From Acidobacteriota bacterium (GTDB lineage: Bacteria > Acidobacteriota > Thermoanaerobaculia > Gp7-AA8): DNA of 64,000 bases. A model generated the notes under the pieces. The model saw only the letters and a program-made list of their open reading frames with translations, made no database searches and had not been told where the DNA came from. Position 1 is the first letter of the stretch. Each line of letters begins with the position of its first letter. Positions 43,624 to 56,100 of this stretch are shown piece after piece. The translations under genes and the position numbers were made by a program. Location of the stretch: NCBI GenBank assembly GCA_019244185.1, contig JAFATB010000022.1:389586-453585 (forward strand), read 5' to 3'.

Positions 43624-45339
43624 CTAGGGCGCGCCGATGGCGCGCCGCACCGCACGAATGTCGCCGTCCAGCGGCCGGTCGTAAAAGACCGGCCGCGCGG
43701 CGCTGCGGATCGTGAGGTACAACGCGCGCGTTCCTTCGCCGAGCTGCGCGGCGATCTCATTCGCGCGATCGCGCACCGCGGCTTCGAACTGCTGCGCCTG
43801 CGCGTTCGCCTCGGCTTCGTTCGCGAGCTTCGTCGGCTTGTTCGGATCGATGTCGAACGCCGCGCGCCATTCGACGGCTTGCGCCGCCGCGAGCAGCTCG
43901 ATCGCGAGCACCGACTGCACGTTCGACAGCACCGTGCGCAGTTTGCGCGCGGCGTGCGTCGACATCGACACGTGGTCTTCCGTGTTCGCGCCGGTCGGGA
44001 TCGAGTCGACCGACGCGGGATGCGCGAGGACTTTATTCTCGGAGACGATCGACGCCGCGGTGTACTGCAGGATCATCAGCCCCGAATTCACGCCCGGTCG
44101 CGTGGTGAGGTTCTGCGGCAACCCGCGATTGTGATGGCCGTCGAGCATCAACTGCGTGCGGCGCTCGCTGATGTTCCCGAGTTCGTGAATGGCGATGGTG
44201 AGGAAGTCCGCCGCGAGCGCGAGCGGCTGACCGTGGAAGTTGCCGGCGGAGTACGCGAGCCGGCGATCGCCGTGATACCACTCCGGCCAGTTCGCGCGGA
44301 ACTGCAGGTCGAAGGGGTCGCCTTCGTCGGGGAAGAACAGCGGATTGTCGGTCGCCGCGTTGAGCTCGCGCTCCGCGGTCGCGCGCACGAAGCGCAACGT
44401 GTCGCGCGTCGCGCCGTGCACCTGCGGCGCGCAGCGCAGCGAATACGGATCCTGCACCGCGCCCGCGCGCTCGACGAGCCGGCTGCCGGCGAGCAGCGCG
44501 CCGATGCGTTGCGCGCTCTCGATCTGTCCCGGATGTCCGCGCTCCGCGTGCACTTTCGGATCGAGCGCGCGCGTGCAGCCGGCGAGCGCTTCGAGCGACA
44601 GCGCGGCCGCGGCGTCGGCATGATCGGCGAGCCGCTCCGCGTCGTACACCGCGAGCGCGAGCATCGCCGCGGAGAAGTTTGCACCGTTGACGAGGCCGAG
44701 TCCTTCCTTGAAGGTCGGCTTCAGTTCATCCGCGGAGAACCCGAGCACCTCGGGCAGCTCGCGCGCGGAACGGAGCGTGCGGTCGGAGGTCGTGTAGAAG
44801 CGGCCTTCTCCAAGCAGCGTGGCGAAGAGATGCGATAGCGGACAGAGATCGCCGCTCGCCCCGACCGAACCGCGCAGCGGGACGAGCGGAATCACGCCGC
44901 GGTTGAGCATCGCCCGCACGATCTCGACGAGCCGCATGCGCACGCCGCTGCGACCTTTGAGAAACGCGTTGAGCCGCGTGGCGAGCGCGCCGCGGACGAC
45001 TTCGGCGGGGTAGTAGTTTGCGAGATCGTCGGGATCGGAGTTGTCGCCGACGCCGACGGAATGCGAGAGCAGCAGGTTGCGCTGCAGCTGTTCGAGATCG
45101 TCCGGCGCGATCGGCTTGTCTTTGAATTCGCCGAAGCCGGTCGTGACGCCGTATTCGGAGATCTTGCCGCCCTGCGCGTATGCCTCGCGATGCTGCGCGA
45201 CGACGCGCGCGATCGCGGCTTCGCTGCGGCGCACGGCGGGCTCGGTCTTCGGATCGATGTCGACCGTGACCGACGGATCGCGGGCGATCGATGCGAGCTG
45301 CTCGATCGTCAGCGACGCGCCGTCGAGCACGACGTTCAT
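43624..45339 (-). CDS. hutH: Histidine ammonia-lyase (aromatic amino-acid lyase family, MIO cofactor)
   Basis: GSVGASGDLCPLSH (Ala-Ser-Gly MIO triad), 571 aa; start ATG overlaps hisS stop (ATGA). Confidence 0.85.
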   Translation of the reverse strand: MNVVLDGASLTIEQLASIARDPSVTVDIDPKTEPAVRRSEAAIARVVAQHREAYAQGGKISEYGVTTGFGEFKDKPIAPDDLEQLQRNLLLSHSVGVGDNSDPDDLANYYPAEVVRGALATRLNAFLKGRSGVRMRLVEIVRAMLNRGVIPLVPLRGSVGASGDLCPLSHLFATLLGEGRFYTTSDRTLRSARELPEVLGFSADELKPTFKEGLGLVNGANFSAAMLALAVYDAERLADHADAAAALSLEALAGCTRALDPKVHAERGHPGQIESAQRIGALLAGSRLVERAGAVQDPYSLRCAPQVHGATRDTLRFVRATAERELNAATDNPLFFPDEGDPFDLQFRANWPEWYHGDRRLAYSAGNFHGQPLALAADFLTIAIHELGNISERRTQLMLDGHHNRGLPQNLTTRPGVNSGLMILQYTAASIVSENKVLAHPASVDSIPTGANTEDHVSMSTHAARKLRTVLSNVQSVLAIELLAAAQAVEWRAAFDIDPNKPTKLANEAEANAQAQQFEAAVRDRANEIAAQLGEGTRALYLTIRSAARPVFYDRPLDGDIRAVRRAIGAP

Positions 45340-46760
45340 TCGAGCTCCGCGAGCATCCGGCGGATGCCGTCGACGAGCTCCGCGCGCGGCATCGTGACCT
45401 GCCCGGCGCGTTGCGCGAGGTACTCCTTGCGATCGGCGACCGGCTTCGCGCGCTCGCGTCCCGCGACCATGTCCTTCACGGTGACGATGCCTTCCGCGTG
45501 CTCGTTGCCGCCGTACAGCAGCGCGAGCGGGATGTCGTACTGGTCGGCGTACTTGAGCTGCTTGCCGACGCCTTTCGCGGTGCCGAGGTAGAGCTCCGTC
45601 GGAATGCCGGCGCGGCGCAGCTCCCACGTCATGGCGAGATACTCCTGTTCGAGCGACTCGTCCATGCGCGCGACGAGCACGCGCGCGGTCGCTTTGCGCT
45701 TGCCGATTTTTCCGAGCTGCGTGAGCGCGGCGAGGAGACGATCGACGCCGATCGACGCACCGACGGCAGGGATCGATTGCCCGAGGAAGCGCATCACGAG
45801 ATCGTCGTAACGGCCGCCGCCGAAGACGGAGCCGAACTGCGGCGCTTCCGTGAGAATCGCTTCGAACACCGGACCGGTGTAGTACGCGAGTCCGCGAGCG
45901 ATCGAGAGATCGAGCGAGACGCGATCGTCGCCGTAGCCCAAAACGTAGAGGTTCGAGGAGATGCGCTCGATGACGTCGATCTGCGCGGGCGCGTTCTCGA
46001 CGTGCGCGAACAACTCGCGCAGGCTGGTGAGCACTTCGCGGCGCGATTCGGATTTGATGGCGAGGAACTGTTCGATGCGATCGACCTGCTCGGACGTGAG
46101 GCCGACGCCGCGGATGGTGTCTCCCGATTCGTCGACGTAGCCGTTCATCAGCTCGCGCCGCACTTTTTCGACTCCGACTTTGTCGAGCTTGTCGAGCACG
46201 CGGAAGACGTCGACGCCCTGCTCGGCGGAGATGCCCGCGAACGCGAGCAGGAGATTCAGCACCGCGCGGCTGGAGAAGCGGACGAGATAGCCGCCGACGT
46301 CGAGCGCGCCGAGGGTGTCGCACATGCCCGCGATGATCTCGGTGTCCGCGATCTCGCTCACGACGCCGACGGAGTCGAGATCGAACTGGATGAACTCGCG
46401 GTAACGCCCTTTGTCCGGCTTGTCCGCGCGCCACACCGGCGCAACCTGATAGCGGCGGAACGGCCGTGGCAACTCGCGCTCGCTGTACTGCGCGATGACG
46501 CGCGCGAGCGGCACGGTCAGATCGAAGCGCAATCCCAATTCCTCGTGCTCCGGATTCGTGACGCGAAAGATCGACTGCTGCGCCTCGGCGCCCGCGCTGC
46601 CCGACAGGACGTCCAGAAACTCGACCGCCGGCGTCGACAACGGCACGAAGCCGTAGTTCTCGTACACCCCGCGAATGGTGTCGATCATCTGCTGCCGCGC
46701 CAGCATCTGGTCGGGAAGCAGATCGCGAAGGCCGCGGGAAAGGCGGGGAGAGGTGGTCAT
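45336..46760 (-). CDS. hisS: Histidine--tRNA ligase
   Basis: class II motifs (RYQVAPVWRADKPDKGRYREFIQFD, GGGRYD), C-terminal anticodon-binding domain; 474 aa. Confidence 0.9.
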   Translation of the reverse strand: MTTSPRLSRGLRDLLPDQMLARQQMIDTIRGVYENYGFVPLSTPAVEFLDVLSGSAGAEAQQSIFRVTNPEHEELGLRFDLTVPLARVIAQYSERELPRPFRRYQVAPVWRADKPDKGRYREFIQFDLDSVGVVSEIADTEIIAGMCDTLGALDVGGYLVRFSSRAVLNLLLAFAGISAEQGVDVFRVLDKLDKVGVEKVRRELMNGYVDESGDTIRGVGLTSEQVDRIEQFLAIKSESRREVLTSLRELFAHVENAPAQIDVIERISSNLYVLGYGDDRVSLDLSIARGLAYYTGPVFEAILTEAPQFGSVFGGGRYDDLVMRFLGQSIPAVGASIGVDRLLAALTQLGKIGKRKATARVLVARMDESLEQEYLAMTWELRRAGIPTELYLGTAKGVGKQLKYADQYDIPLALLYGGNEHAEGIVTVKDMVAGRERAKPVADRKEYLAQRAGQVTMPRAELVDGIRRMLAELE

Positions 46761-46772
46761 GAGAAGCGGAAT

Positions 46773-46898
46773 GTAGAACGCAGAACGCAGAACGCAGAAT
46801 GAAGAAAGGGGAACGATGCGCAGTCGCGGGGCGACGGCATTTCTACGTTCTTACTTCTGCGTTCTGCGTTCTTCATTCCGCCGCCGCCAGGCGGCGGC
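46773..46898. repeat. Composite element between tRNA-His and hisS: (GAACGCA)x3 + GAATGAAGAA on one side, inverted copies TTCTTCATTC + (TGCGTTC)x2 on the other, plus an 8-bp GC hairpin (46880-46898) abutting the tRNA 3' end; lower GC than surroundings
   Basis: read directly; elements A/B/A'/B' arranged so that A:A' and B:B' pairings are mutually exclusive. Confidence 0.5.
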
Positions 46899-46899
46899 T

Positions 46900-46976
46900 T
46901 GGTACCGGGGGCCGGTCTCGAACCGGCGACCCCCAGATCCACAATCTGGTGCTCTGACCAACTGAGCTACCCCGGC
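46900..46976 (-). tRNA. tRNA-His (anticodon GTG) with encoded CCA, G1-U72, A73 and no encoded G-1
   Basis: hand-folded cloverleaf: acceptor GCCGGGG/CCCCGGU, D-arm GCUC-AGUUGGUCA-GAGC, anticodon arm CCAGA-UUGUGGA-UCUGG, variable GGGUC, T-arm GCCGG-UUCGAGA-CCGGC, A73, CCA; nucleotide at -1 is U. Confidence 0.85.
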
Positions 46977-47071
46977 ACTCGGGCGGGCATGATACTCGGG
47001 CACGCAGACGAGGGGAAGAGGCGCGCTCCGTGCCGTCCGCGCGTGAGAACGCCGCATCCCGCGAACGCATT

Positions 47072-47332
47072 TCAGACGAAGACGTATTCGTCCGCGGCCG
47101 CGCCACGCCCCGCGAACGTGACCATCGCGTACTGGCGCCGCCGCCCGATGCCGTCGATCGCGGCGATGGTGTACGTGCTGCGCGCGCCCTCCAACAGGCC
47201 GGGGGGCGGATCGCCGGAGCCCACGACGACGATCCGTCCCGAAGAAATGCGCGCCCGCCGCGTACGCCATTGCACCGCGCTCTGGTCGTTGACGACCAGC
47301 ACATCGCACAACCGGACGGCGGGCTCGCTCAT
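47072..47332 (-). CDS. Small hypothetical protein
   Basis: ORF only (MSEPAVRLCDVLVVNDQSAVQW...), no recognisable motif. Confidence 0.3.
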   Translation of the reverse strand: MSEPAVRLCDVLVVNDQSAVQWRTRRARISSGRIVVVGSGDPPPGLLEGARSTYTIAAIDGIGRRRQYAMVTFAGRGAAADEYVFV

Positions 47333-47419
47333 GGTGAAGGCGACAATCTCCGAAGCGTGAGTCCTGCGCCCGCGATGATAGATCAACTTCTATCCGTCAA
47401 AATGTCCAAAATTGCACAA

Positions 47420-48091
47420 TCAGTCACTATCCAGCAGCTGCAGCGCTTTCCGCCGATGCACGGCGATCGAGCGTCCCGCCGTCACGACGATGCCGCGTTT
47501 GCGGAAGCGCTGCATGAATACGGTGATGCGCGGCCGCGTGGTGCCGACGATCTGCGAGAGCTCTTCCTGCGAGATGCGCAGGTCGACGCGCGCGTAGTCG
47601 CCGTCGATGCTGCCGAGTTTCTCCGCGATGCCGAGCAACACTTTCGCGAGCCGCTTCTCGGCGTCCATCGTGACGAGGTCGAACACCGCCACCTGCCGCT
47701 CGGCGAGCCGCAGCGCGAGGTGCCGCAACAGCATCTCCATCGCGGAGGCTTTCTCGACTTCCACGAGATAATCGCGCCGCAACACTTTGCGCACGAAGGT
47801 GCGCTGCATCGCGGACGCGGTCTCGTTCCTGCGGCCGCTGTCGAGAAAACACGATTCGCCGAAGACATCGCCGGCGGCGTAAATCGCGAGCACGCAATCC
47901 TTGCCGCTGGCGGAAGACATGGACAGCTTCACCTGTCCCGACTCGATCAGGTACATGGCGTCGTCTTCGTCCCCCGTGGCATAGATCGCTTGCTGGGCAT
48001 CAGCGCGCAAGCGCGCCACCGGCAACGACTCGCGATCGAAAATGTCGCGAAGGGACGGTAGCGAATGGGCGCGGCCGTCTTTGGAAGGCAT
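47420..48091 (-). CDS. Crp/FNR-family transcriptional regulator
   Basis: cNMP-binding beta-roll (YLIESGQVKL...GDVFGE) + C-terminal HTH (SQEELSQIVGTTRPRITVFMQRFRKRG). Confidence 0.85.
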   Translation of the reverse strand: MPSKDGRAHSLPSLRDIFDRESLPVARLRADAQQAIYATGDEDDAMYLIESGQVKLSMSSASGKDCVLAIYAAGDVFGESCFLDSGRRNETASAMQRTFVRKVLRRDYLVEVEKASAMEMLLRHLALRLAERQVAVFDLVTMDAEKRLAKVLLGIAEKLGSIDGDYARVDLRISQEELSQIVGTTRPRITVFMQRFRKRGIVVTAGRSIAVHRRKALQLLDSD

Positions 48092-48386
48092 CTGGAAAAA
48101 TGCGTCGCGATCGTAGGCACCACCGAACGCTTCGTCTGTTCAGTATTGGACATGCCTTTCATGCCGTTGCGCATCACGGCTACGCCGCGGAGAAACTCGC
48201 GCAAGTTCGTGCGCAGTACGCATGCGCACTGAATCGACCGCGCCACGCGGCCGACGCGCACACCCGGAGCGGCATCGTGCACCATCACCAGACGGAGTGC
48301 CGCAACCCGCGCCGATGCGGCTCACGATCCTGCGCACGCTCTGGCGTCGTGGCGCGCTTCGTGTGGTCTACGCGAGGGAGATACGA

Positions 48387-48544
48387 CCGGGAGCGCCTCC
48401 GGCGGGCCGGCGCGGCCGGCAGCGCTGAGGGCTTAGCCAGTACGCACGTGCGGCTGCTGTCACCACGCTCGCCGCGACCGCACGTGCGGATAGGCTAGGC
48501 CCTCAGCGCTGTCGGCCGTGCCGGCCCGCCGGAGGCGCTCTGGG
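48387..48544. repeat. 158-bp imperfect inverted repeat (two 67-nt arms, ~88% complementary, 24-nt spacer) in intergenic region
   Basis: arms 48387-48453 and 48478-48544 aligned by hand; 5 of 8 mismatches are G-U/U-G pairs when folded as plus-strand RNA. Confidence 0.5.
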
Positions 48545-48555
48545 TCGTCCTCTCC

Positions 48556-49563
48556 CTATGAAGCCACGAAGAGCGCGTCGGCGAACCACGCGCGGGCGTC
48601 GGTCCAGAGGTGCGCGATCGTGAAGCCGGAGGATTGGGCGAGGGCGGCGAGGGTGGACTCGTCGTGTTTGTAGGAGCTCTCGGTGTGGATCGTTTCGGCT
48701 TCGGCGAAATCGACGCTCAGATCGAGGGCGGCGAGGTGGACGCGTTGCGGTTGCGTGCTCACGAGGTGCATCTCGATGCGGCCGAGGGGCTCGTTGTAGA
48801 AGGCGCGGTGGGTGAAGCGGTCGAGCGCGAAGTCGGCGTTGAGTTCGCGGTTCATGCGCACGAGGAGATTCTTGTTGAAGGCGGCGGTGACGCCGAGGGG
48901 GTCGTCGTAGGCGGGTTCGAGAACGTTGCGCGGCTTGCGGAGATCGGCGCCGAGGAGCAGCGCGTCGCCGCGGGAGAGTGCGGAGCGGAGATCGCGGAGC
49001 ATCGCGATCGCGGCGTCGGGATCGAGATTGCCGATGGTCGAGCCGAGGAAAAGGACCACGTTGCGGCCGCGATGGGGGCCAAGCATCGCGAGCGACGACG
49101 ACGGCGACGCGAAGTCGGCGCGGACGGCGGTGATGCGGAGGTGCGGATAGTCGGCGAGCAGCTCGCGCGCGGAGCGTTCGAGCATCGACGCGTCGACGTC
49201 GACGGGAACGTATTCGAGCTCACGCTGGCGTTCCGTCAGGACGTCGAGGAGGATGCGCGTCTTGCGCGCGGCGCCGCTGCCGAGCTCCACGAGGCGCACC
49301 TGGGCGCCGAACGCATCGCAGATTTCGCTCGCGTGCGCGTGCAGCACCTCGGCTTCCGCGCGCATCACGTAGTACTCGGGCAGAAAACAGATCGCGTCGA
49401 AGAGCGAGGATCCGAGCTCGTCGTAGAACCAGCGCGGCGGGAGCGACTTGCGGGACGCGGTGAGACCGCGGCGGACGTCGTCCGCGAAATCGCCGGCCGC
49501 GACGGCGCCGTGGCGCAGCGTGAACCGTGACGTGGGCGAGACCGGGACGGCGGCTGCGCACAT
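48556..49563 (-). CDS. egtD: L-histidine N(alpha)-methyltransferase (EgtD-like, ergothioneine pathway first step)
   Basis: KSLPPRWFYDELGSSLFDAICFLPEYY, LVELGSGAARKTRILLD SAM motif, LFLGSTIGNL, strong collinearity with mycobacterial EgtD. Confidence 0.85.
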   Translation of the reverse strand: MCAAAVPVSPTSRFTLRHGAVAAGDFADDVRRGLTASRKSLPPRWFYDELGSSLFDAICFLPEYYVMRAEAEVLHAHASEICDAFGAQVRLVELGSGAARKTRILLDVLTERQRELEYVPVDVDASMLERSARELLADYPHLRITAVRADFASPSSSLAMLGPHRGRNVVLFLGSTIGNLDPDAAIAMLRDLRSALSRGDALLLGADLRKPRNVLEPAYDDPLGVTAAFNKNLLVRMNRELNADFALDRFTHRAFYNEPLGRIEMHLVSTQPQRVHLAALDLSVDFAEAETIHTESSYKHDESTLAALAQSSGFTIAHLWTDARAWFADALFVAS

Positions 49564-53107: not shown

Positions 53108-56100
53108 TCAGGGCTGAATGGGCTCGTAGTCCGGCAGCAGCACGACGTTCTGCTTGCGCACCGCGTCGCGGAACTGCGCGACGTCGGACGCGTACAGCTG
53201 GTTCAGATCGGCGAGCACGCTGCGCAGCAGCAGCTCCGCGTTCGCGAGATACGTCAGCTGCGCGGGCGTCGGCGCGTCCCACGACGACTGCATGGCGTTG
53301 ATCGGATAGCCGATGCGGGACAGCACGTCGTTCTCGGCGACGAGGCCTTTCGTCTTCGGCGGCGTCCAGAGGCGGCGTTCGATGGCGTCGAGCTTCGCCT
53401 TCAGTTCCGTGGCCTGCTTCGTCAGCGGATCGGGCGGCGCGTTCGTCGCGGCGGCGTCGCGGTCGTCGTCCTTCTTCAGCTTCGCCGTGATCGCATCGAG
53501 ATCGGCGCGCGTCTTCTGGATGCGCTCGACCGCGGCGGTCGCGGTTTCCTGCAGCGCGCCAGCGCGCACGATCGCGTCGTACTTTGCCTGCCGCACCGAC
53601 TGCGCGATCGTCTCGCGCGGATCGGCGACGACGGTCACCTGCTGCTTCGCCTCGTTGCCGCGGAAGCGGATCGTGACGGTGTAGACGCCCGGCACGACTT
53701 CCGGACCTCCGCGCCGGCGGAACGATTCTTCTTCGCCCTCGCCGCGCTTCGGCTGCTTGAAGGCGTCGCGCGTGAGATCCCACGACGCGCGGTTCACGCC
53801 GAGGATCGCGGGACCTTTGAACTTGCGAATGACCTTGCCGGCGGCGTCGGCGACTTCGATGTCGACTTGCGGCGGCTTGTCGTCGCCGGCGCGTGTCGCC
53901 TGCGTTTGGCCTTGCGGCTTCTGCGCTTCCTTCTGTTCCTGCTTCGCCTTCTGCGCCTCCGGCTCCTTCGGCACGTCGCTCACGACCTGCGGCACGCCTT
54001 CGTCGGTCACGATCGCCTGCCGCGCGGCGTCGCGTTCCTTCTCCTTGCGCTCGCGTTCGCGTTCTTCCGTCGGATGCGGGATGCCGGCGACGTTGAGCGA
54101 GTAGGTGAGGAGCGCGCCGTACGGCTCGTTCTCGCCGCGGAATTCGGAGTCGCCGACGAAGCGCGAGCCTTCCTTCTGCCGCACGGTGTACTGCTGCGCG
54201 TCGGGCACGCTGAAGAAGTGCAGCGGCTCGGCGAGCACGGCTTTCGACATCGTGCGCAGCGGGCGGATGTCGTCGAGGATGTACGCGGCGCGCCCGTGCG
54301 TGGCGATGGCGAGATCGTGATCGCGCGGATGGATCTTCAGTCCCTGCACGGACACCGTCGGGAAGCCGTGCTTCCACTTCGACCACGACTTGCCGCCGTC
54401 GAGGCTCGTCCAGAGACCGAACTCCGTGCCGAGGAAGAGGAGATCGGCGTCGACCGGATCCTGTTCGATCGAGAGCGCGTAGCCCCAGAGGTCTTTCGTC
54501 GCCAGCGACGTCCACGTCTTGCCGTAGTCGTTCGTGCGGAAGACGTACGGCGTCCAGTTCGAGCGGCGGTGATCGTCGAGGACGATGAACGCGGTGCCGG
54601 CGTCGTACGTCGAGGCCTTGATCTCCGGCACCCACGTGTTCGCGGGAACGCCTTTGAGATTCGCCTCGACGCTCGTCCAGTGCGCGCCGCCGTCGCGCGT
54701 CACCTGCACGCGGCCGTCGTCGGTGCCGGCCCAGACGACGTTGCGGTCGACGGGACTCGGCGCGAGCGCGATGATCGTCGTGAAGTTCTCCGCGCCGCTC
54801 GCGTCGAGCGTGAGGCCGCCGCTCTTGTCCTGCTGCTGCCACTCCTTGCGATTCGTCGTGAGATCGGGGCTGATCGTCTTCCACGTCTCGCCGCGATCGC
54901 TCGAGTGATGCACGTACTGGCTGCCGAAGTAGACGCCGTTCGGATCGAACGGATCGACGGCGATGGCGGCGTTCCAGTTGAAGCGGATGGGCGTGTTCGG
55001 ATCGAGTGGCGCGGGGCGGATGTCCTTCCGCTCGCCGGTGCGCAGGTTCCAGCGGACGATGTGCCCTTCCTGGCTCATCGCGTAGCCGACCATCGGATCG
55101 GTGGGAATCGGCGCGGTGCCGAAGCCGTCGCCGAACCCGATCTCCTGCCAGTCCCAGTTGCGCACGCCGGCGGTCTCCCACGTCGTGTTCGGCCCTTTCC
55201 ACGAGCCGTTGTCCTGCATGCCGCCGTAGATGTTGTACGGCATCTCGTTGTCGACGGCGATGTGGTAGTACTGGCCGAGCGGCAGCGACGCGACGAAGCG
55301 CCAGCTCGTGCCACGGTCGCGCGATTCCGAGACGCCGCCGTCGTTGCCTTCGAGGATGTGGCCGCCGTCGTTCGGATCGATCCACATCGCGTGATGGTCG
55401 GGATGCACTTTCGAGTACGGCACGAGCGTCTTGAACGTGCGCCCGCCGTCGTTCGACACGCTGATCACCGAGTAGATGTTGTAGACGCGATTCGCGTCCT
55501 GCGGATCGACGCGGAGAAACGTGTAGTAGAACGGGCGATTGGCGATGTCGGTCTCCGTGTTGACCGCGGTCCATTTGCGACCGCCATCGTCGGAGCGCAG
55601 CAGCGCGCTCTTGTCGGCTTCGACGAGCGCGTAGACGATGCTCGGGTTCGAGCGCGCGATGGCGACGCCGATGCGCCCCAGCACACCTTTCGGCATGCCG
55701 TCGTCTTCGGTATAGCGCTTCCACGTTTCGCCGCCGTCGTACGAGACGTAGAGTCCCGAGCCGGGGCCGCCGGAGTTGAAGTACCACGGCCAGCGCCGGT
55801 ACTCCCACATCGACGCGAAGAGCTTGTTCGGATTCGACGGATCGATGACCAGATCGGCGGCGCCGGTGCGGTCGTTCACGAAGAGCACTTTGCGCCAGCT
55901 CTTGCCGCCGTCGACGGTCTTGAAGACGCCGCGGTCGGCGTTCGGCGACCACTCCTGGCCGAGCGCGGCGACCCAGGCGACGTTTGGATCGCGCGGATGC
56001 ACGACGATGCGCGGAATGCGCTCGGTCTTGTCGAGGCCGAGGTGCTGCCAGGTCTTGCCGCCGTCGAGCGTCCGGTAGACGCCGTTGCCGACGGAGACGG

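What the first reader, a model, noticed from the sequence alone, without database searches (positions are those of the whole stretch)
46900..46976. tRNA-His without an encoded G-1, with G1-U72 and A73, immediately upstream of its own synthetase gene
Most bacterial tRNA-His genes encode an extra 5' G (G-1) pairing with C73, which is the major HisRS identity element. Here the nucleotide at -1 is U, position 73 is A and the first acceptor pair is G1-U72. This is the identity set described for the alpha-proteobacterial-type tRNA-His, which co-evolved with a modified HisRS. The gene sits on the same strand, 140 nt upstream of hisS. The gene content of this window does not look alpha-proteobacterial, so this would be a case of the non-canonical His identity system outside that clade, with the tRNA and its cognate synthetase co-localised.
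Basis: partly seen in the sequence, partly recalled or inferred. Interest (0 to 1): 0.55.

Follow-up and report, generated by a model that had tools for sequence, protein, structure and literature searches.

The report
G-1-less tRNA-His with its synthetase
An acidobacterial (Thermoanaerobaculia) genome encodes, in one operon, a histidine tRNA that lacks the near-universal extra 5' G and the matching altered histidyl-tRNA synthetase, a system reported so far only in one alphaproteobacterial clade but found here in several other bacterial phyla.

Summary
ARAGORN and Rfam both call a tRNA-His(GTG) at 46976..46900 (- strand). It has U at -1, a G1-U72 pair, A73 and an encoded CCA, and lies 139 nt upstream of hisS (46760..45336).

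The window comes from a Thermoanaerobaculia (Acidobacteriota) genome. The same tRNA type sits upstream of hisS in all 43 related loci that include upstream DNA.

The HisRS has lost the features that read G-1:C73. E. coli Q118 is Asp, R116 is Lys, and the Gly-Gly G-1 pocket reads Pro-Glu-His. It shares two insertions with the alphaproteobacterial G-1-independent enzyme. One of them lies in the anticodon-contact loop.

Among 156 HisRS sequences, all 39 with both insertions lack the Gln, against 24 of 117 others. Seven further deep lineages, including Planctomycetota and Zixibacteria MAGs, have a complete U72/A73 tRNA-His without a paired G-1 upstream of hisS, and an eighth (L079) a 5'-truncated one showing only U72/A73.

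Best reading: a G-1-independent HisRS/tRNA-His pair, working as in Caulobacter, encoded as a promoter–tRNA–hisS–hutH operon.

It is a new member of a known kind, and it contradicts the view that this system is unique to Alphaproteobacteria.

Not tested: the mature 5' end, charging, and the rest of the genome.

The parts
46989..47017 (-). Promoter-like site for the tRNA-His/hisS transcript: -35-like TTCCCC (47017-47012), 17-nt spacer, -10 TATCAT (46994-46989). The -10 box ends 12 nt before tRNA position +1.
   Evidence: The (g)TATCAT box, 12-14 nt upstream of +1, is conserved in nearly all Thermoanaerobaculia loci. The strict sigma-70 consensus scan found nothing, so this rests on conservation only.
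46900..46976 (-). tRNA-His(GUG) gene without G-1. G1 = 46976, U72 = 46904, A73 = 46903, encoded CCA = 46902-46900. Position -1 (46977) is T.
   Evidence: ARAGORN; Rfam tRNA 68.9 bits; sequence; conserved in 44 genes of 43 related loci; alignment with E. coli hisR.
46883..46898 (-). Small GC hairpin (GCCGCC-GCCU-GGCGGC) that starts 1 nt after the encoded CCA.
   Evidence: Fold. Analogous small tetraloop hairpins follow the tRNA in many related spacers.
46765..46882 (-). Long hairpin in the tRNA-hisS spacer. Its arms are tandem heptads, (GAACGCA)n and (TGCGTTC)n. It is an optional insert, probably a processing or attenuation element.
   Evidence: MFE -77.3 kcal/mol, z = -9.96; heptad repeats. 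About 26 of 44 related spacers carry a hairpin with different heptads whose two arms co-vary; the others have 14-60-nt spacers without it. The same kind of element occurs at intergenic sites without a tRNA in metagenome contig L161.
45336..46760 (-). hisS, encoding a 474-aa HisRS of the G-1-independent (delta-G-1) type.
   Evidence: TIGR00442 350 bits; Pfam tRNA-synt_His + HGTP_anticodon. Its closest solved structures are the eukaryote/archaeal-like class (6nhi, 3net, human HARS), not the E. coli or Thermus enzymes.
46392..46430 (-). Motif-2 loop, residues R111-F123 (RADKPDKGRYREF). K114 replaces E. coli R116 (Thermus R115). D116 replaces E. coli Q118 (Thermus Q117).
   Evidence: Alignments. 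Contact residues are from Tian 2015 (PMC4357726). Family-wide covariation.
46545..46556 (-). Residues N69-P70-E71-H72, at the site of Thermus D70-R71-G72-G73, the Gly-Gly pocket that holds G-1.
   Evidence: Mapped onto the Thermus sequence, which was checked against PDB 4rdx. Tian 2015 report that Caulobacter HisRS has two Asp here, which block the G-1 site.
46098..46148 (-). Insertion 1 (M205-L221, 'GYVDESGDTIRGVGL') in the insertion domain.
   Evidence: Present only in HisRS that lack the Gln, including Alphaproteobacteria and Pelagibacter. Absent from E. coli, Thermus, human, Nostoc, 6nhi and the Terriglobia HisRS.
45387..45461 (-). Insertion 2 (about 19 aa within G434-P458, 'RERAKPVADRKEYLAQRAG') in the anticodon-binding domain. 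It lies directly after the strand that carries the Thermus K397 equivalent, at the loop that carries Q404.
   Evidence: Alignments. Thermus K397 and Q404 contact G36 and U35. Heinemann 2012 proposed an inserted anticodon-recognition loop in the alphaproteobacterial enzyme.
43624..45339 (-). hutH-like histidine ammonia-lyase gene (571 aa). Its ATG overlaps the hisS stop codon (gaATGa), so it is the third gene of the operon.
   Evidence: Pfam Lyase_aromatic 559 bits; NCBIfam NF006871 545 bits (cutoff 524). The hisS-HAL order is conserved in more than 40 loci, including Planctomycetota L082.

Best explanation
This is a self-contained, G-1-independent histidine charging system of the Caulobacter type, in a Thermoanaerobaculia (Acidobacteriota) genome. 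It is encoded as one operon: promoter, tRNA-His, optional hairpin, hisS, hutH-like gene.

Shown from sequence:
- The tRNA gene has no G at -1. It has a G1-U72 wobble pair, A73, C3-G70, G37, a 9-nt D-loop and an encoded CCA.
- The HisRS next to it lacks the residues that canonical enzymes use for G-1:C73. It has Asp in place of the motif-2 Gln, Lys in place of the Arg that reads G1, and Pro-Glu-His in place of the Gly-Gly pocket.
- The HisRS carries two insertions shared with the alphaproteobacterial enzyme. One sits in the loop that contacts anticodon bases U35 and G36.

Inferred:
- RNase P cuts at the normal +1 site, giving a 7-bp acceptor stem.
- HisRS selects the tRNA through the GUG anticodon (enlarged anticodon loop) and through U72/A73, not through the 5' phosphate of an extra G.
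- tRNA and mRNA are made from one transcript, which keeps the mutually dependent pair linked.
For: - The tRNA call and its features are confirmed.
- The features are identical in 44 tRNA-His genes of 43 Thermoanaerobaculia loci, each upstream of hisS on the same strand. L010 has two tandem copies, both of this type.
- The tRNA matches the published delta-G-1 set, in which U72 and the anticodon are the major determinants for Caulobacter HisRS (U72C reduces kcat/Km 91-fold; adding G-1 gives no gain).
- HisRS residues were mapped onto the Thermus-tRNA complex: R115 to K, Q117 to D, G72'G73' to E-H; R120, R122 and K397 are kept.
- Covariation across 156 HisRS: 39 of 39 with both insertions lack the Gln, and 37 of 39 have Lys at the R116 site. 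Of the other 117, 93 keep the Gln.
- Seven more deep lineages of this HisRS family have a tRNA-His with G1-U72 and A73 upstream of hisS: L055, L074, L075, L076, L082 (Planctomycetota MAG), L083 (Zixibacteria MAG) and L207. An eighth, L079, holds only the 3' half of such a tRNA and shows U72, A73 and CCA. Their -1 bases are T, T, T, A, G, T and C.
- Spacers of only 14-40 nt in many relatives, and a conserved -10 box before the tRNA, argue for co-transcription.
- The catalytic motifs (RGLAYYTG, GGGRYD) and the anticodon-binding domain are intact.
Against: - There are no biochemical or RNA-end data for this organism.
- Only 64 kb of a multi-Mb genome was seen, so a second tRNA-His, a second HisRS or a Thg1-like enzyme cannot be excluded.
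- The residue at the Gln site is Asp here, not the Gly of Alphaproteobacteria, so recognition of A73 may differ in detail.
- The Arg equivalent to Thermus R7, which contacts G-1, is retained.
- In a quick NJ bootstrap with the insertion columns excluded, the whole insertion-bearing family formed a near-exclusive clade in only about a quarter of replicates. Common descent with the alphaproteobacterial enzyme therefore rests mainly on the shared insertions.
Confidence: 0.8

Rival explanations
1. Eukaryote-like route: the gene lacks G-1, but a Thg1-like 3'-5' nucleotidyltransferase adds G-1 opposite A73 after RNase P cleavage, and the HisRS still depends on G-1.
For: A73 without an encoded G-1 is the eukaryotic arrangement, and Thg1-like proteins do occur in some bacteria. 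The HisRS belongs to the eukaryote/archaeal-like sequence class. The genome outside the window could not be searched.
Against: - The HisRS lacks the Gly-Gly G-1 pocket that human HARS keeps (DQGG). It has an acidic residue there, as in the G-1-independent Caulobacter enzyme.
- The conserved G1-U72 pair is the Caulobacter-type determinant.
- The enzyme shares both insertions with the alphaproteobacterial enzymes. By my recollection of Wang et al. 2007 (paper not held), mature tRNA-His in those bacteria lacks any extra nucleotide.
- Bacterial Thg1-like proteins are described as 5'-end repair enzymes.
Confidence: 0.07
2. Auxiliary copy: the tRNA upstream of hisS is a second, specialised or regulatory tRNA-His (for example a cis-acting tRNA-like leader that HisRS binds), while translation uses a canonical G-1/C73 tRNA-His and another HisRS encoded elsewhere.
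For: Only 64 kb was seen. aaRS genes are often autoregulated through tRNA-like leaders. The position directly before hisS would suit such a role.
Against: - It is a full, high-scoring tRNA with encoded CCA and its own conserved promoter.
- The HisRS passes the hisS equivalog cutoff and has intact catalytic motifs.
- This enzyme has lost the G-1:C73-reading features, so it could not serve a canonical tRNA.
- The same tRNA type is found 47-317 nt from hisS in other phyla, and 1.5-2.5 kb away in Pelagibacter, where it is the known sole tRNA-His type.
- L010 carries two tandem copies of this type.
Confidence: 0.06
3. Retained N-1: U-1 pairs with A73 in the precursor, RNase P cuts one position upstream as it does for G-1:C73, and the mature tRNA carries U-1 on an 8-bp stem.
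For: T at -1 is invariant in the window and in all 44 genes of the related loci, in genomes of about 67% GC, and it could pair with A73.
Against: - Across the deeper lineages that show it, -1 is T, T, T, A, G, T and C, so no particular base is kept.
- The whole short leader after the -10 box is conserved in the Thermoanaerobaculia loci, which alone explains the invariant T.
- By my recollection of the RNase P literature, U-1 is the generally preferred leader base for bacterial RNase P, and U-1 with A73 is common in ordinary pre-tRNAs.
- The HisRS pocket for an extra base is filled.
Confidence: 0.04

Closest known systems
Alphaproteobacterial delta-G-1 HisRS/tRNA-His pair (Caulobacter crescentus, Sinorhizobium meliloti, Rhizobiales/Rhodobacterales/Caulobacterales, most SAR11; Ardell & Andersson 2006, Wang et al. 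2007, Yuan et al. 2011)
   Same: The tRNA has no encoded G-1 and has G1-U72, A73, C3-G70, G37 and a 9-nt D-loop. The HisRS has Lys at the R116 site, has lost Gln118, has acidic residues in place of the Gly-Gly G-1 pocket, and carries the same two insertions, one of them in the anticodon-contact loop.
   Different: The host is Thermoanaerobaculia (Acidobacteriota), not Alphaproteobacteria, and HisRS identity to the alphaproteobacterial enzymes is only 33-42%. The Gln118 site is Asp and the next residue Lys (KPDK), against Gly-Pro (KPGP) in Alphaproteobacteria. The alpha-specific insertion before motif 3 is absent. tRNA and hisS form an operon with hutH, whereas the two Alphaproteobacteria/Hyphomicrobiales loci fetched here have no tRNA within 3 kb.
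Canonical bacterial system (E. coli, Thermus thermophilus): encoded G-1 paired with C73, shifted RNase P cleavage, HisRS with RPQKGR motif-2 loop and Gly-Gly pocket
   Same: Same enzyme family and catalytic motifs, same GUG anticodon, and R120/R122/K397 equivalents conserved.
   Different: There is no G-1. The tRNA has A73 instead of C73 and U72 instead of C72. The Gln, the Arg and the Gly-Gly pocket are replaced, and two insertions are present. Within the same phylum, a Terriglobia HisRS (L071) is of the canonical type (27% identical).
Eukaryotic cytosolic system (A73, G-1 added by Thg1) and the Thg1-less protists (Acanthamoeba, Trypanosoma) with G-1-independent HisRS
   Same: A73 and no encoded G-1. 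The HisRS belongs to the same broad eukaryote/archaeal-like sequence class. Like the protist enzymes, it probably relies on the anticodon.
   Different: Human HARS keeps the Gly-Gly pocket and lacks both insertions. There is no evidence for a Thg1 here. Rao & Jackman (2015) single out the G1-U72 preference as a feature of the Caulobacter enzyme when contrasting it with the protist enzymes.
Co-located aaRS/tRNA pairs and tRNA-linked regulation of aaRS genes (pylS-pylT; T-box leaders of hisS in Firmicutes)
   Same: The synthetase gene and its cognate tRNA (or a tRNA-sensing element) are adjacent. This keeps an idiosyncratic pair together.
   Different: Here the upstream element is a real tRNA gene with its own promoter, not a riboswitch. 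Rfam finds no T-box or other family in the window.

Membership tests
[quoted passage not shown] | No G encoded at position -1 | tested here: met
   Position -1 is T (46977). It is T in all 44 related genes.
[quoted passage not shown] | Discriminator A73 instead of C73 | tested here: met
   A at 46903. Invariant in all relatives and in eight further lineages.
[quoted passage not shown] | G1-U72 wobble pair (major determinant for Caulobacter HisRS) | tested here: met
   G 46976 pairs with T 46904. U72 is invariant in all the tRNAs listed above. G1-U72 is seen wherever the 5' end is present, that is in all but the truncated L079.
[quoted passage not shown] | C3-G70, a 9-nt D-loop with an extra base at 20a, and G37 (Yuan 2011) | tested here: met
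   The window has C3-G70, the D-loop AGTTGGTCA (9 nt; 20a is C here and U in most relatives) and the anticodon loop TTGTGGA (G37). Some deeper lineages have shorter D-loops or A3-U70.
[quoted passage not shown] | Mature tRNA starts at G1 with no extra 5' nucleotide | not testable with these tools
   Needs 5'-end mapping of the RNA.
delta-G-1 type HisRS | Motif-2 loop has lost the Gln (E. coli Q118) that covaries with C73 | tested here: met
   The window has Asp116 (RADKPDKGRY); Alphaproteobacteria have Gly. In the insertion-bearing family, 0 of 39 keep the Gln.
delta-G-1 type HisRS | Gly-Gly G-1 pocket (Thermus G72'G73') replaced by bulky or acidic residues | tested here: met
   The window has N69-P70-E71-H72; Alphaproteobacteria have DSDD or DDDG. 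The statement about Caulobacter is in Tian 2015.
delta-G-1 type HisRS | Characteristic peptide insertions, including one in the anticodon-binding domain | tested here: met
   Both insertions are present and shared with L060, L061 and L063. The alpha-specific third insertion is absent.
delta-G-1 type HisRS | Aminoacylation independent of G-1 and dependent on the anticodon and U72 | not testable with these tools
   Needs in vitro charging assays.
delta-G-1 type HisRS | Restricted to the RRCH clade of Alphaproteobacteria, as stated in the literature | tested here: not met
   The host is Thermoanaerobaculia/Acidobacteriota. Other members are in Planctomycetota and Zixibacteria MAGs, and by HisRS sequence in Omnitrophota. 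This shows the taxonomic restriction is not a valid defining feature. It does not exclude the window from the functional family.
delta-G-1 system as the sole His system of the cell | A single tRNA-His type, a single HisRS, and no Thg1-like enzyme in the genome | not tested
T-box leader of hisS | Match to the Rfam T-box covariance model between promoter and hisS | tested here: not met
   The only Rfam match in the window at gathering score is the tRNA.

The most novel reading that the evidence does not exclude
The G-1-independent HisRS/tRNA-His pair did not arise within Alphaproteobacteria. It is an older system carried as a tRNA-His-hisS cassette, often with hutH, hisZ or hisG, in Acidobacteriota, Planctomycetota, Zixibacteria and Omnitrophota-like lineages. 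The RRCH/SAR11 Alphaproteobacteria would then have acquired it by horizontal transfer of the linked pair. In that case the character used as a unique alphaproteobacterial synapomorphy is an import, and the long-debated 'eukaryote-derived' origin of their HisRS is replaced by a bacterial donor.
Probability: 0.35. Interest if true: 0.75.

Novelty: new member of a known kind. Interest (0 to 1): 0.6.

Why it matters
G-1 on tRNA-His is one of the most universal tRNA identity marks. The papers I could read describe its loss in bacteria as confined to a single alphaproteobacterial clade:
- 'the only exceptions ... identified to date'
[quoted passage not shown] That loss has been used as a synapomorphy in the debate over SAR11 placement.

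Finding the same tRNA/enzyme covariation in Acidobacteriota, Planctomycetota, Zixibacteria and several unnamed lineages has three consequences:
1. The origin of the alphaproteobacterial system becomes testable by phylogeny: in-situ change, eukaryotic transfer, or a bacterial donor.
2. The tight tRNA-hisS linkage suggests how an otherwise incompatible identity change could spread, namely as a linked pair.
3. It provides many new natural HisRS/tRNA-His pairs likely to be orthogonal to the E. coli system, for genetic-code engineering.

Tried and rejected
- **Alternative fold:** an alternative register placing a G at -1 is rejected. U8/A9, the D-arm and the Rfam alignment fix the register.
- **T-box or other known leader:** the gathering-score Rfam scan of the window found only the tRNA.
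- **Consensus scans:** the sigma-70 promoter and intrinsic-terminator scans of 46600-47500 found nothing. The promoter proposal rests on conservation only.
- **Second tRNA call:** the ARAGORN 'tRNA-Glu(ctc)' at 53300-53386 (87 nt) has no Rfam support and lies inside a long ORF, so I treat it as a false positive.
- **Unavailable papers:** the two founding papers (PMC1363771, PMC1855720) are not held. Statements about them come from citing papers or are marked as recollection.
- **Phylogeny:** the first bootstrap script timed out. The fast NJ gave good support for the alpha-like subgroup (187/200) and for the Thermoanaerobaculia group (175/200). Support for monophyly of the whole insertion-bearing family was weak. 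I do not claim a resolved tree or a direction of transfer.
- **Recent transfer from Alphaproteobacteria:** rejected as unlikely. Identity is only 33-42%, the Thermoanaerobaculia clade is itself deep (64-84%), and local GC is unremarkable.
- **Heptad hairpin as a His-specific regulator:** weakened. About 40% of related loci lack it, and the same type occurs at two intergenic sites without a tRNA in contig L161. The metagenome pattern scan itself was mostly non-specific AT-rich matches.
- **Uninformative contigs:** L077, L078, L080, L081, L084 and L085 showed no tRNA in the available flank, mostly because the upstream sequence was short.
- **Not run:** structure prediction, because the tools cannot superpose a model on the tRNA complex. 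Mapping through the validated Thermus sequence was used instead.
Full report
**1. The observation**

ARAGORN reports one tRNA-His (anticodon GTG) at 46900-46976 on the - strand. Rfam's tRNA model matches 46976-46903 full-length with 68.9 bits.

Read on the - strand, the gene is t|GCCGGGG TA GCTC AGTTGGTCA GAGC A CCAGA TTGTGGA TCTGG GGGTC GCCGG TTCGAGA CCGGC CCCCGGT A CCA. U8/A9 and the D-arm fix the numbering:
- position -1 is T (46977)
- G1 (46976) pairs with U72 (46904)
- position 73 is A (46903)
- CCA is encoded

E. coli hisR, fetched as a comparator, shows the canonical extra G, G1-C72 and C73 in the same alignment.

hisS lies 139 nt downstream on the same strand (46760..45336). It is 474 aa and scores 350 bits on TIGR00442 against a cutoff of 287. 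Pfam finds the tRNA-synt_His and HGTP_anticodon domains.

**2. The organism**

The HisRS is 100% identical to a database protein named 'histidine--tRNA ligase [Acidobacteria bacterium]'. In a scan of one genome per species, about 50 MAG contigs, most of them labelled Thermoanaerobaculia, encode HisRS 64-85% identical to it. Next come these groups:

| Group | Identity | Loci |
|---|---|---|
| Omnitrophota, Zixibacteria, one Acidobacteriota MAG and one unclassified 'bacterium' MAG | about 50% | L052-L056 |
| Alphaproteobacteria / Hyphomicrobiales | 41-42% | L060, L061, L068 |
| Pelagibacteraceae | 33% | L063-L066 |
| Terriglobia (same phylum) | 27% | L071 |

Local GC is unremarkable. So the window is acidobacterial, not alphaproteobacterial.

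**3. Conservation of the tRNA and its position**

In all 43 loci of the group at 74% identity or higher that include upstream DNA, a tRNA-His lies upstream of hisS on the same strand, 14 to about 380 nt away. L010 has two tandem copies. All 44 genes have T at -1, G1-U72, A73, C3-G70, G37 and an encoded CCA. Nearly all have the 9-nt D-loop AGTTGGTTA; the window has C at position 20a.

These are the features Yuan et al. list for the alphaproteobacterial delta-G-1 tRNA-His. For that tRNA the anticodon and U72 are the main determinants, and adding G-1 does not help charging (PMC3064791). The Pelagibacter loci show the same tRNA type 1.5-2.5 kb upstream of hisS.

**4. The synthetase**

By sequence it belongs to the eukaryote/archaeal-like HisRS class. 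Its best solved relatives are 6nhi, 3net (Nostoc) and human HARS, with E-values of 1e-58 to 1e-62. The E. coli and Thermus enzymes match only at about 1e-24.

I mapped the residues that contact tRNA in the Thermus HisRS-tRNA complex (Tian 2015, PMC4357726). The Thermus sequence I used was shown to be identical to PDB 4rdx.

| Thermus residue | Role in the complex | Window HisRS | Alphaproteobacteria |
|---|---|---|---|
| R115 (E. coli R116) | bonds to G1 | K114 | K |
| Q117 (E. coli Q118) | covaries with C73 | D116 | G |
| D70-R71-G72-G73 | Gly-Gly pocket for G-1 | N69-P70-E71-H72 | DSDD / DDDG |
| R120, R122, K397 | — | kept | kept |

Tian et al. note that Caulobacter HisRS has two Asp at the Gly-Gly site, which block the G-1 site.

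Two insertions are present:
- 'GYVDESGDTIRGVGL' in the insertion domain.
- About 19 aa directly after the K397 strand, at the loop that carries Q404. K397 and Q404 contact G36 and U35.

Both insertions are shared with the alphaproteobacterial and Pelagibacter enzymes. Both are absent from E. coli, Thermus, human, Nostoc, 6nhi, the Terriglobia HisRS and a CPR HisRS. Heinemann et al. had proposed an inserted anticodon-recognition loop for the alphaproteobacterial enzyme.

**5. Covariation across the family**

A search of 1.84 billion cluster representatives returned the 150 nearest HisRS clusters at 50% identity. Those of at least 400 aa were aligned with a set of HisRS from the fetched loci, giving 156 sequences in all. 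Among them, 39 carry both insertions:
- none of the 39 has Gln at the Q118 site (20 Gly, 13 Asp, 6 other)
- 37 have Lys at the R116 site
- most have Asp or Glu at the first Gly of the pocket

Of the other 117, 93 keep the Gln and most keep a Gly in the pocket.

I built an NJ tree with the insertion columns excluded. In the point estimate the 39 fall in one clade together with seven aberrant sequences. The alpha-like subgroup (xEKPGPG motif) is monophyletic in 187 of 200 bootstraps, and the Thermoanaerobaculia group in 175 of 200. Family-wide monophyly is weakly supported: only about a quarter of replicates give a near-exclusive clade. Common descent with the alphaproteobacterial enzyme therefore rests mainly on the shared insertions and substitutions. 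I do not claim a direction of transfer.

**6. Other lineages of the family**

Contigs encoding diverse family members were fetched and scanned for tRNAs.

| Locus | Source | -1 | Features | Distance to hisS |
|---|---|---|---|---|
| L055 | Acidobacteriota MAG | T | G1-U72, A73 | 36 nt |
| L074 | metagenome | T | G1-U72, A73 | 25 nt |
| L075 | metagenome | T | G1-U72, A73 | 116 nt |
| L076 | low-GC contig | A | G1-U72, A73 | about 290 nt |
| L079 | metagenome (5'-truncated tRNA) | ? | U72, A73, CCA | 30 nt |
| L082 | Planctomycetota GCA_016719295.1 | G | G1-U72, A73 | 317 nt |
| L083 | Zixibacteria GCA_030634725.1 | T | G1-U72, A73 | 135 nt |
| L207 | metagenome | C | G1-U72, A73 | 47 nt |

So U72/A73 without a paired G-1, and tRNA-hisS linkage, recur across the family. 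The -1 base is not conserved between deep lineages. That argues against retention of any particular extra nucleotide.

**7. Operon anatomy in the window**

A (g)TATCAT box 12-14 nt before tRNA position +1 is conserved in nearly all Thermoanaerobaculia loci. In the window it is 46994-46989, with a -35-like TTCCCC at 47017-47012. The strict consensus scan did not flag it.

After the CCA come a small GC hairpin (46898-46883) and a long hairpin (46882-46765; -77 kcal/mol, z = -10) whose arms are tandem heptads. About 26 of 44 related spacers have an equivalent hairpin with other heptads (GAAAATT, GAGGATT, GAATGTT, GAATGCA), and the two arms change together. The remaining spacers are only 14-60 nt, for example CCA-TTCG-ATG in L019. 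In those loci hisS can hardly have its own promoter, so co-transcription with the tRNA is the simplest reading.

In the AT-rich heptad versions, the centre is a GC hairpin followed by a T-run, which looks like a terminator. The same kind of element lies between ordinary genes in contig L161. I therefore regard it as a generic intergenic hairpin (an attenuator or an RNase III site), not a histidine-specific device.

The hisS stop codon overlaps the ATG of a hutH-like histidine ammonia-lyase gene (45339..43624). That gene order is conserved in more than 40 loci and in Planctomycetota L082. Elsewhere hisS is followed by hisZ (Pelagibacter) or hisG (L076).

**8. Mechanism and rivals**

The best-supported reading (confidence about 0.8) is a Caulobacter-like, G-1-independent pair. 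RNase P cuts at +1. HisRS recognises the GUG anticodon through the enlarged loop, and U72/A73 through the altered motif-2 loop and insertion domain. The G-1 pocket is filled. The sequence features and their covariation are shown; the RNA end and the charging specificity are inferred.

The rivals are:
- post-transcriptional G-1 addition by a Thg1-like enzyme (0.07)
- an auxiliary or regulatory tRNA copy beside a canonical system elsewhere in the genome (0.06)
- retention of U-1 paired with A73 (0.04)

None is excluded outright, because only 64 kb of the genome was available. Each conflicts with the state of the HisRS pocket, or with the variable -1 base, or with the shared descent with enzymes known to be G-1-independent.

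**9. Comparison with what is known, and novelty**

Every paper I could read restricts the bacterial delta-G-1 system to an alphaproteobacterial clade and its phages:
- Yuan 2011
- Rao & Jackman 2015: 'the only exceptions ... identified to date'
- the Giegé & Eriani 2023 review
- Mukai 2016 and 2017

Full-text searches for the system in other phyla found nothing. The library is incomplete, so prior description elsewhere cannot be ruled out.

I file this as a new member of a known kind. It uses the same identity set and the same enzyme family, in new phyla, with a different residue (Asp) at the key motif-2 position and a tRNA-aaRS operon arrangement.

**10. Limits**

- No whole-genome view, no RNA data and no biochemistry.
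- Taxonomic labels are those of MAG depositors.
- The deep phylogeny is unresolved.
- Statements about Wang et al. 2007 (mature tRNA ends in Sinorhizobium and Caulobacter) and about RNase P's preference for U-1 are from memory, because those papers were not held.

Noticed in passing
window 46765-46882 (- strand); L001-L050 tRNA-hisS spacers; L161 8670-8755 and 10745-10840: A long hairpin whose two arms are tandem heptad repeats ((GAACGCA)n/(TGCGTTC)n here; GAAAATT, GAGGATT, GAATGTT or GAATGCA in other genomes). The arms co-vary between genomes. The element is present in about 60% of related tRNA-hisS spacers and absent from the rest. The AT-rich versions enclose a GC hairpin followed by a T-run, like a terminator. 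It also occurs between ordinary genes in a metagenome contig. It has no Rfam family.
   Followed up: partly
window 48375-48556: A very large GC-rich palindrome (71-nt arms, 89% complementary; -163 kcal/mol, z = -16.7 as RNA). It lies between egtD (48556-49563, -) and the Crp/Fnr-like gene (47420-48091, -) and overlaps a 132-aa ORF that has no family match.
   Followed up: partly
window 43624-45339 (-), 48556-49563 (-): A histidine-themed neighbourhood. A hutH-like histidine ammonia-lyase gene has a start codon that overlaps the hisS stop codon. egtD (histidine N-alpha-methyltransferase, ergothioneine pathway) lies 1.6 kb upstream of the tRNA. The tRNA-His-hisS-HAL order recurs in a Planctomycetota MAG (L082, followed there by hisZ). 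Elsewhere hisS is followed by hisG (L076) or hisZ (Pelagibacter).
   Followed up: partly
window 53300-53386 (+): ARAGORN calls an 87-nt 'tRNA-Glu(ctc)' here. Rfam gives no tRNA match and the site lies inside a long BNR/sortilin-like ORF on the other strand. It is probably a false positive.
   Followed up: yes
L005, L009, L020, L029 (20-30 nt between tRNA CCA and hisS ATG): In the short-spacer loci, the sequence just before the hisS start codon is CCCUCCUUC-AUG. That resembles the 16S anti-Shine-Dalgarno sequence rather than a Shine-Dalgarno site. The window also has no GGAGG before hisS. How translation starts on a message that begins right after a tRNA is unclear.
   Followed up: no
L076 9690-9940: The 3' part of the tRNA-His (from the T-arm) plus about 100 nt of downstream sequence is repeated directly about 140 nt further on. 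This is the pattern left by an element integrated into a tRNA gene, or by a tandem duplication.
   Followed up: no
L010 2645-2721 and 2869-2945: Two tandem tRNA-His genes, both of the G-1-less type, lie upstream of hisS in one Thermoanaerobaculia MAG. They differ at several stem positions.
   Followed up: no
L082 7827-7923 and 9609: In the Planctomycetota MAG, a tRNA-Sec with selA and a selD-like gene lies just upstream of the tRNA-His. This tRNA-His has a G at -1 opposite A73 (unpaired) and A3-U70 instead of C3-G70.
   Followed up: no
L059 2695-4677: The Komeilibacteria (CPR) HisRS match spans 1983 nt for about 425 query residues, and the ORF I extracted ends early. This suggests an insertion, an intein or a frameshift in that gene. 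Its motif-2 loop keeps the canonical Gln.
   Followed up: no
L040-L046, L051: A sister group of Thermoanaerobaculia/Acidobacteriota MAGs (HisRS 64-70% identical) has the same G-1-independent-type HisRS. In most of these loci neither a tRNA-His within 3 kb upstream nor the downstream HAL gene is present (L045 and L046 include less upstream DNA). So the operon is not universal in the class.
   Followed up: partly
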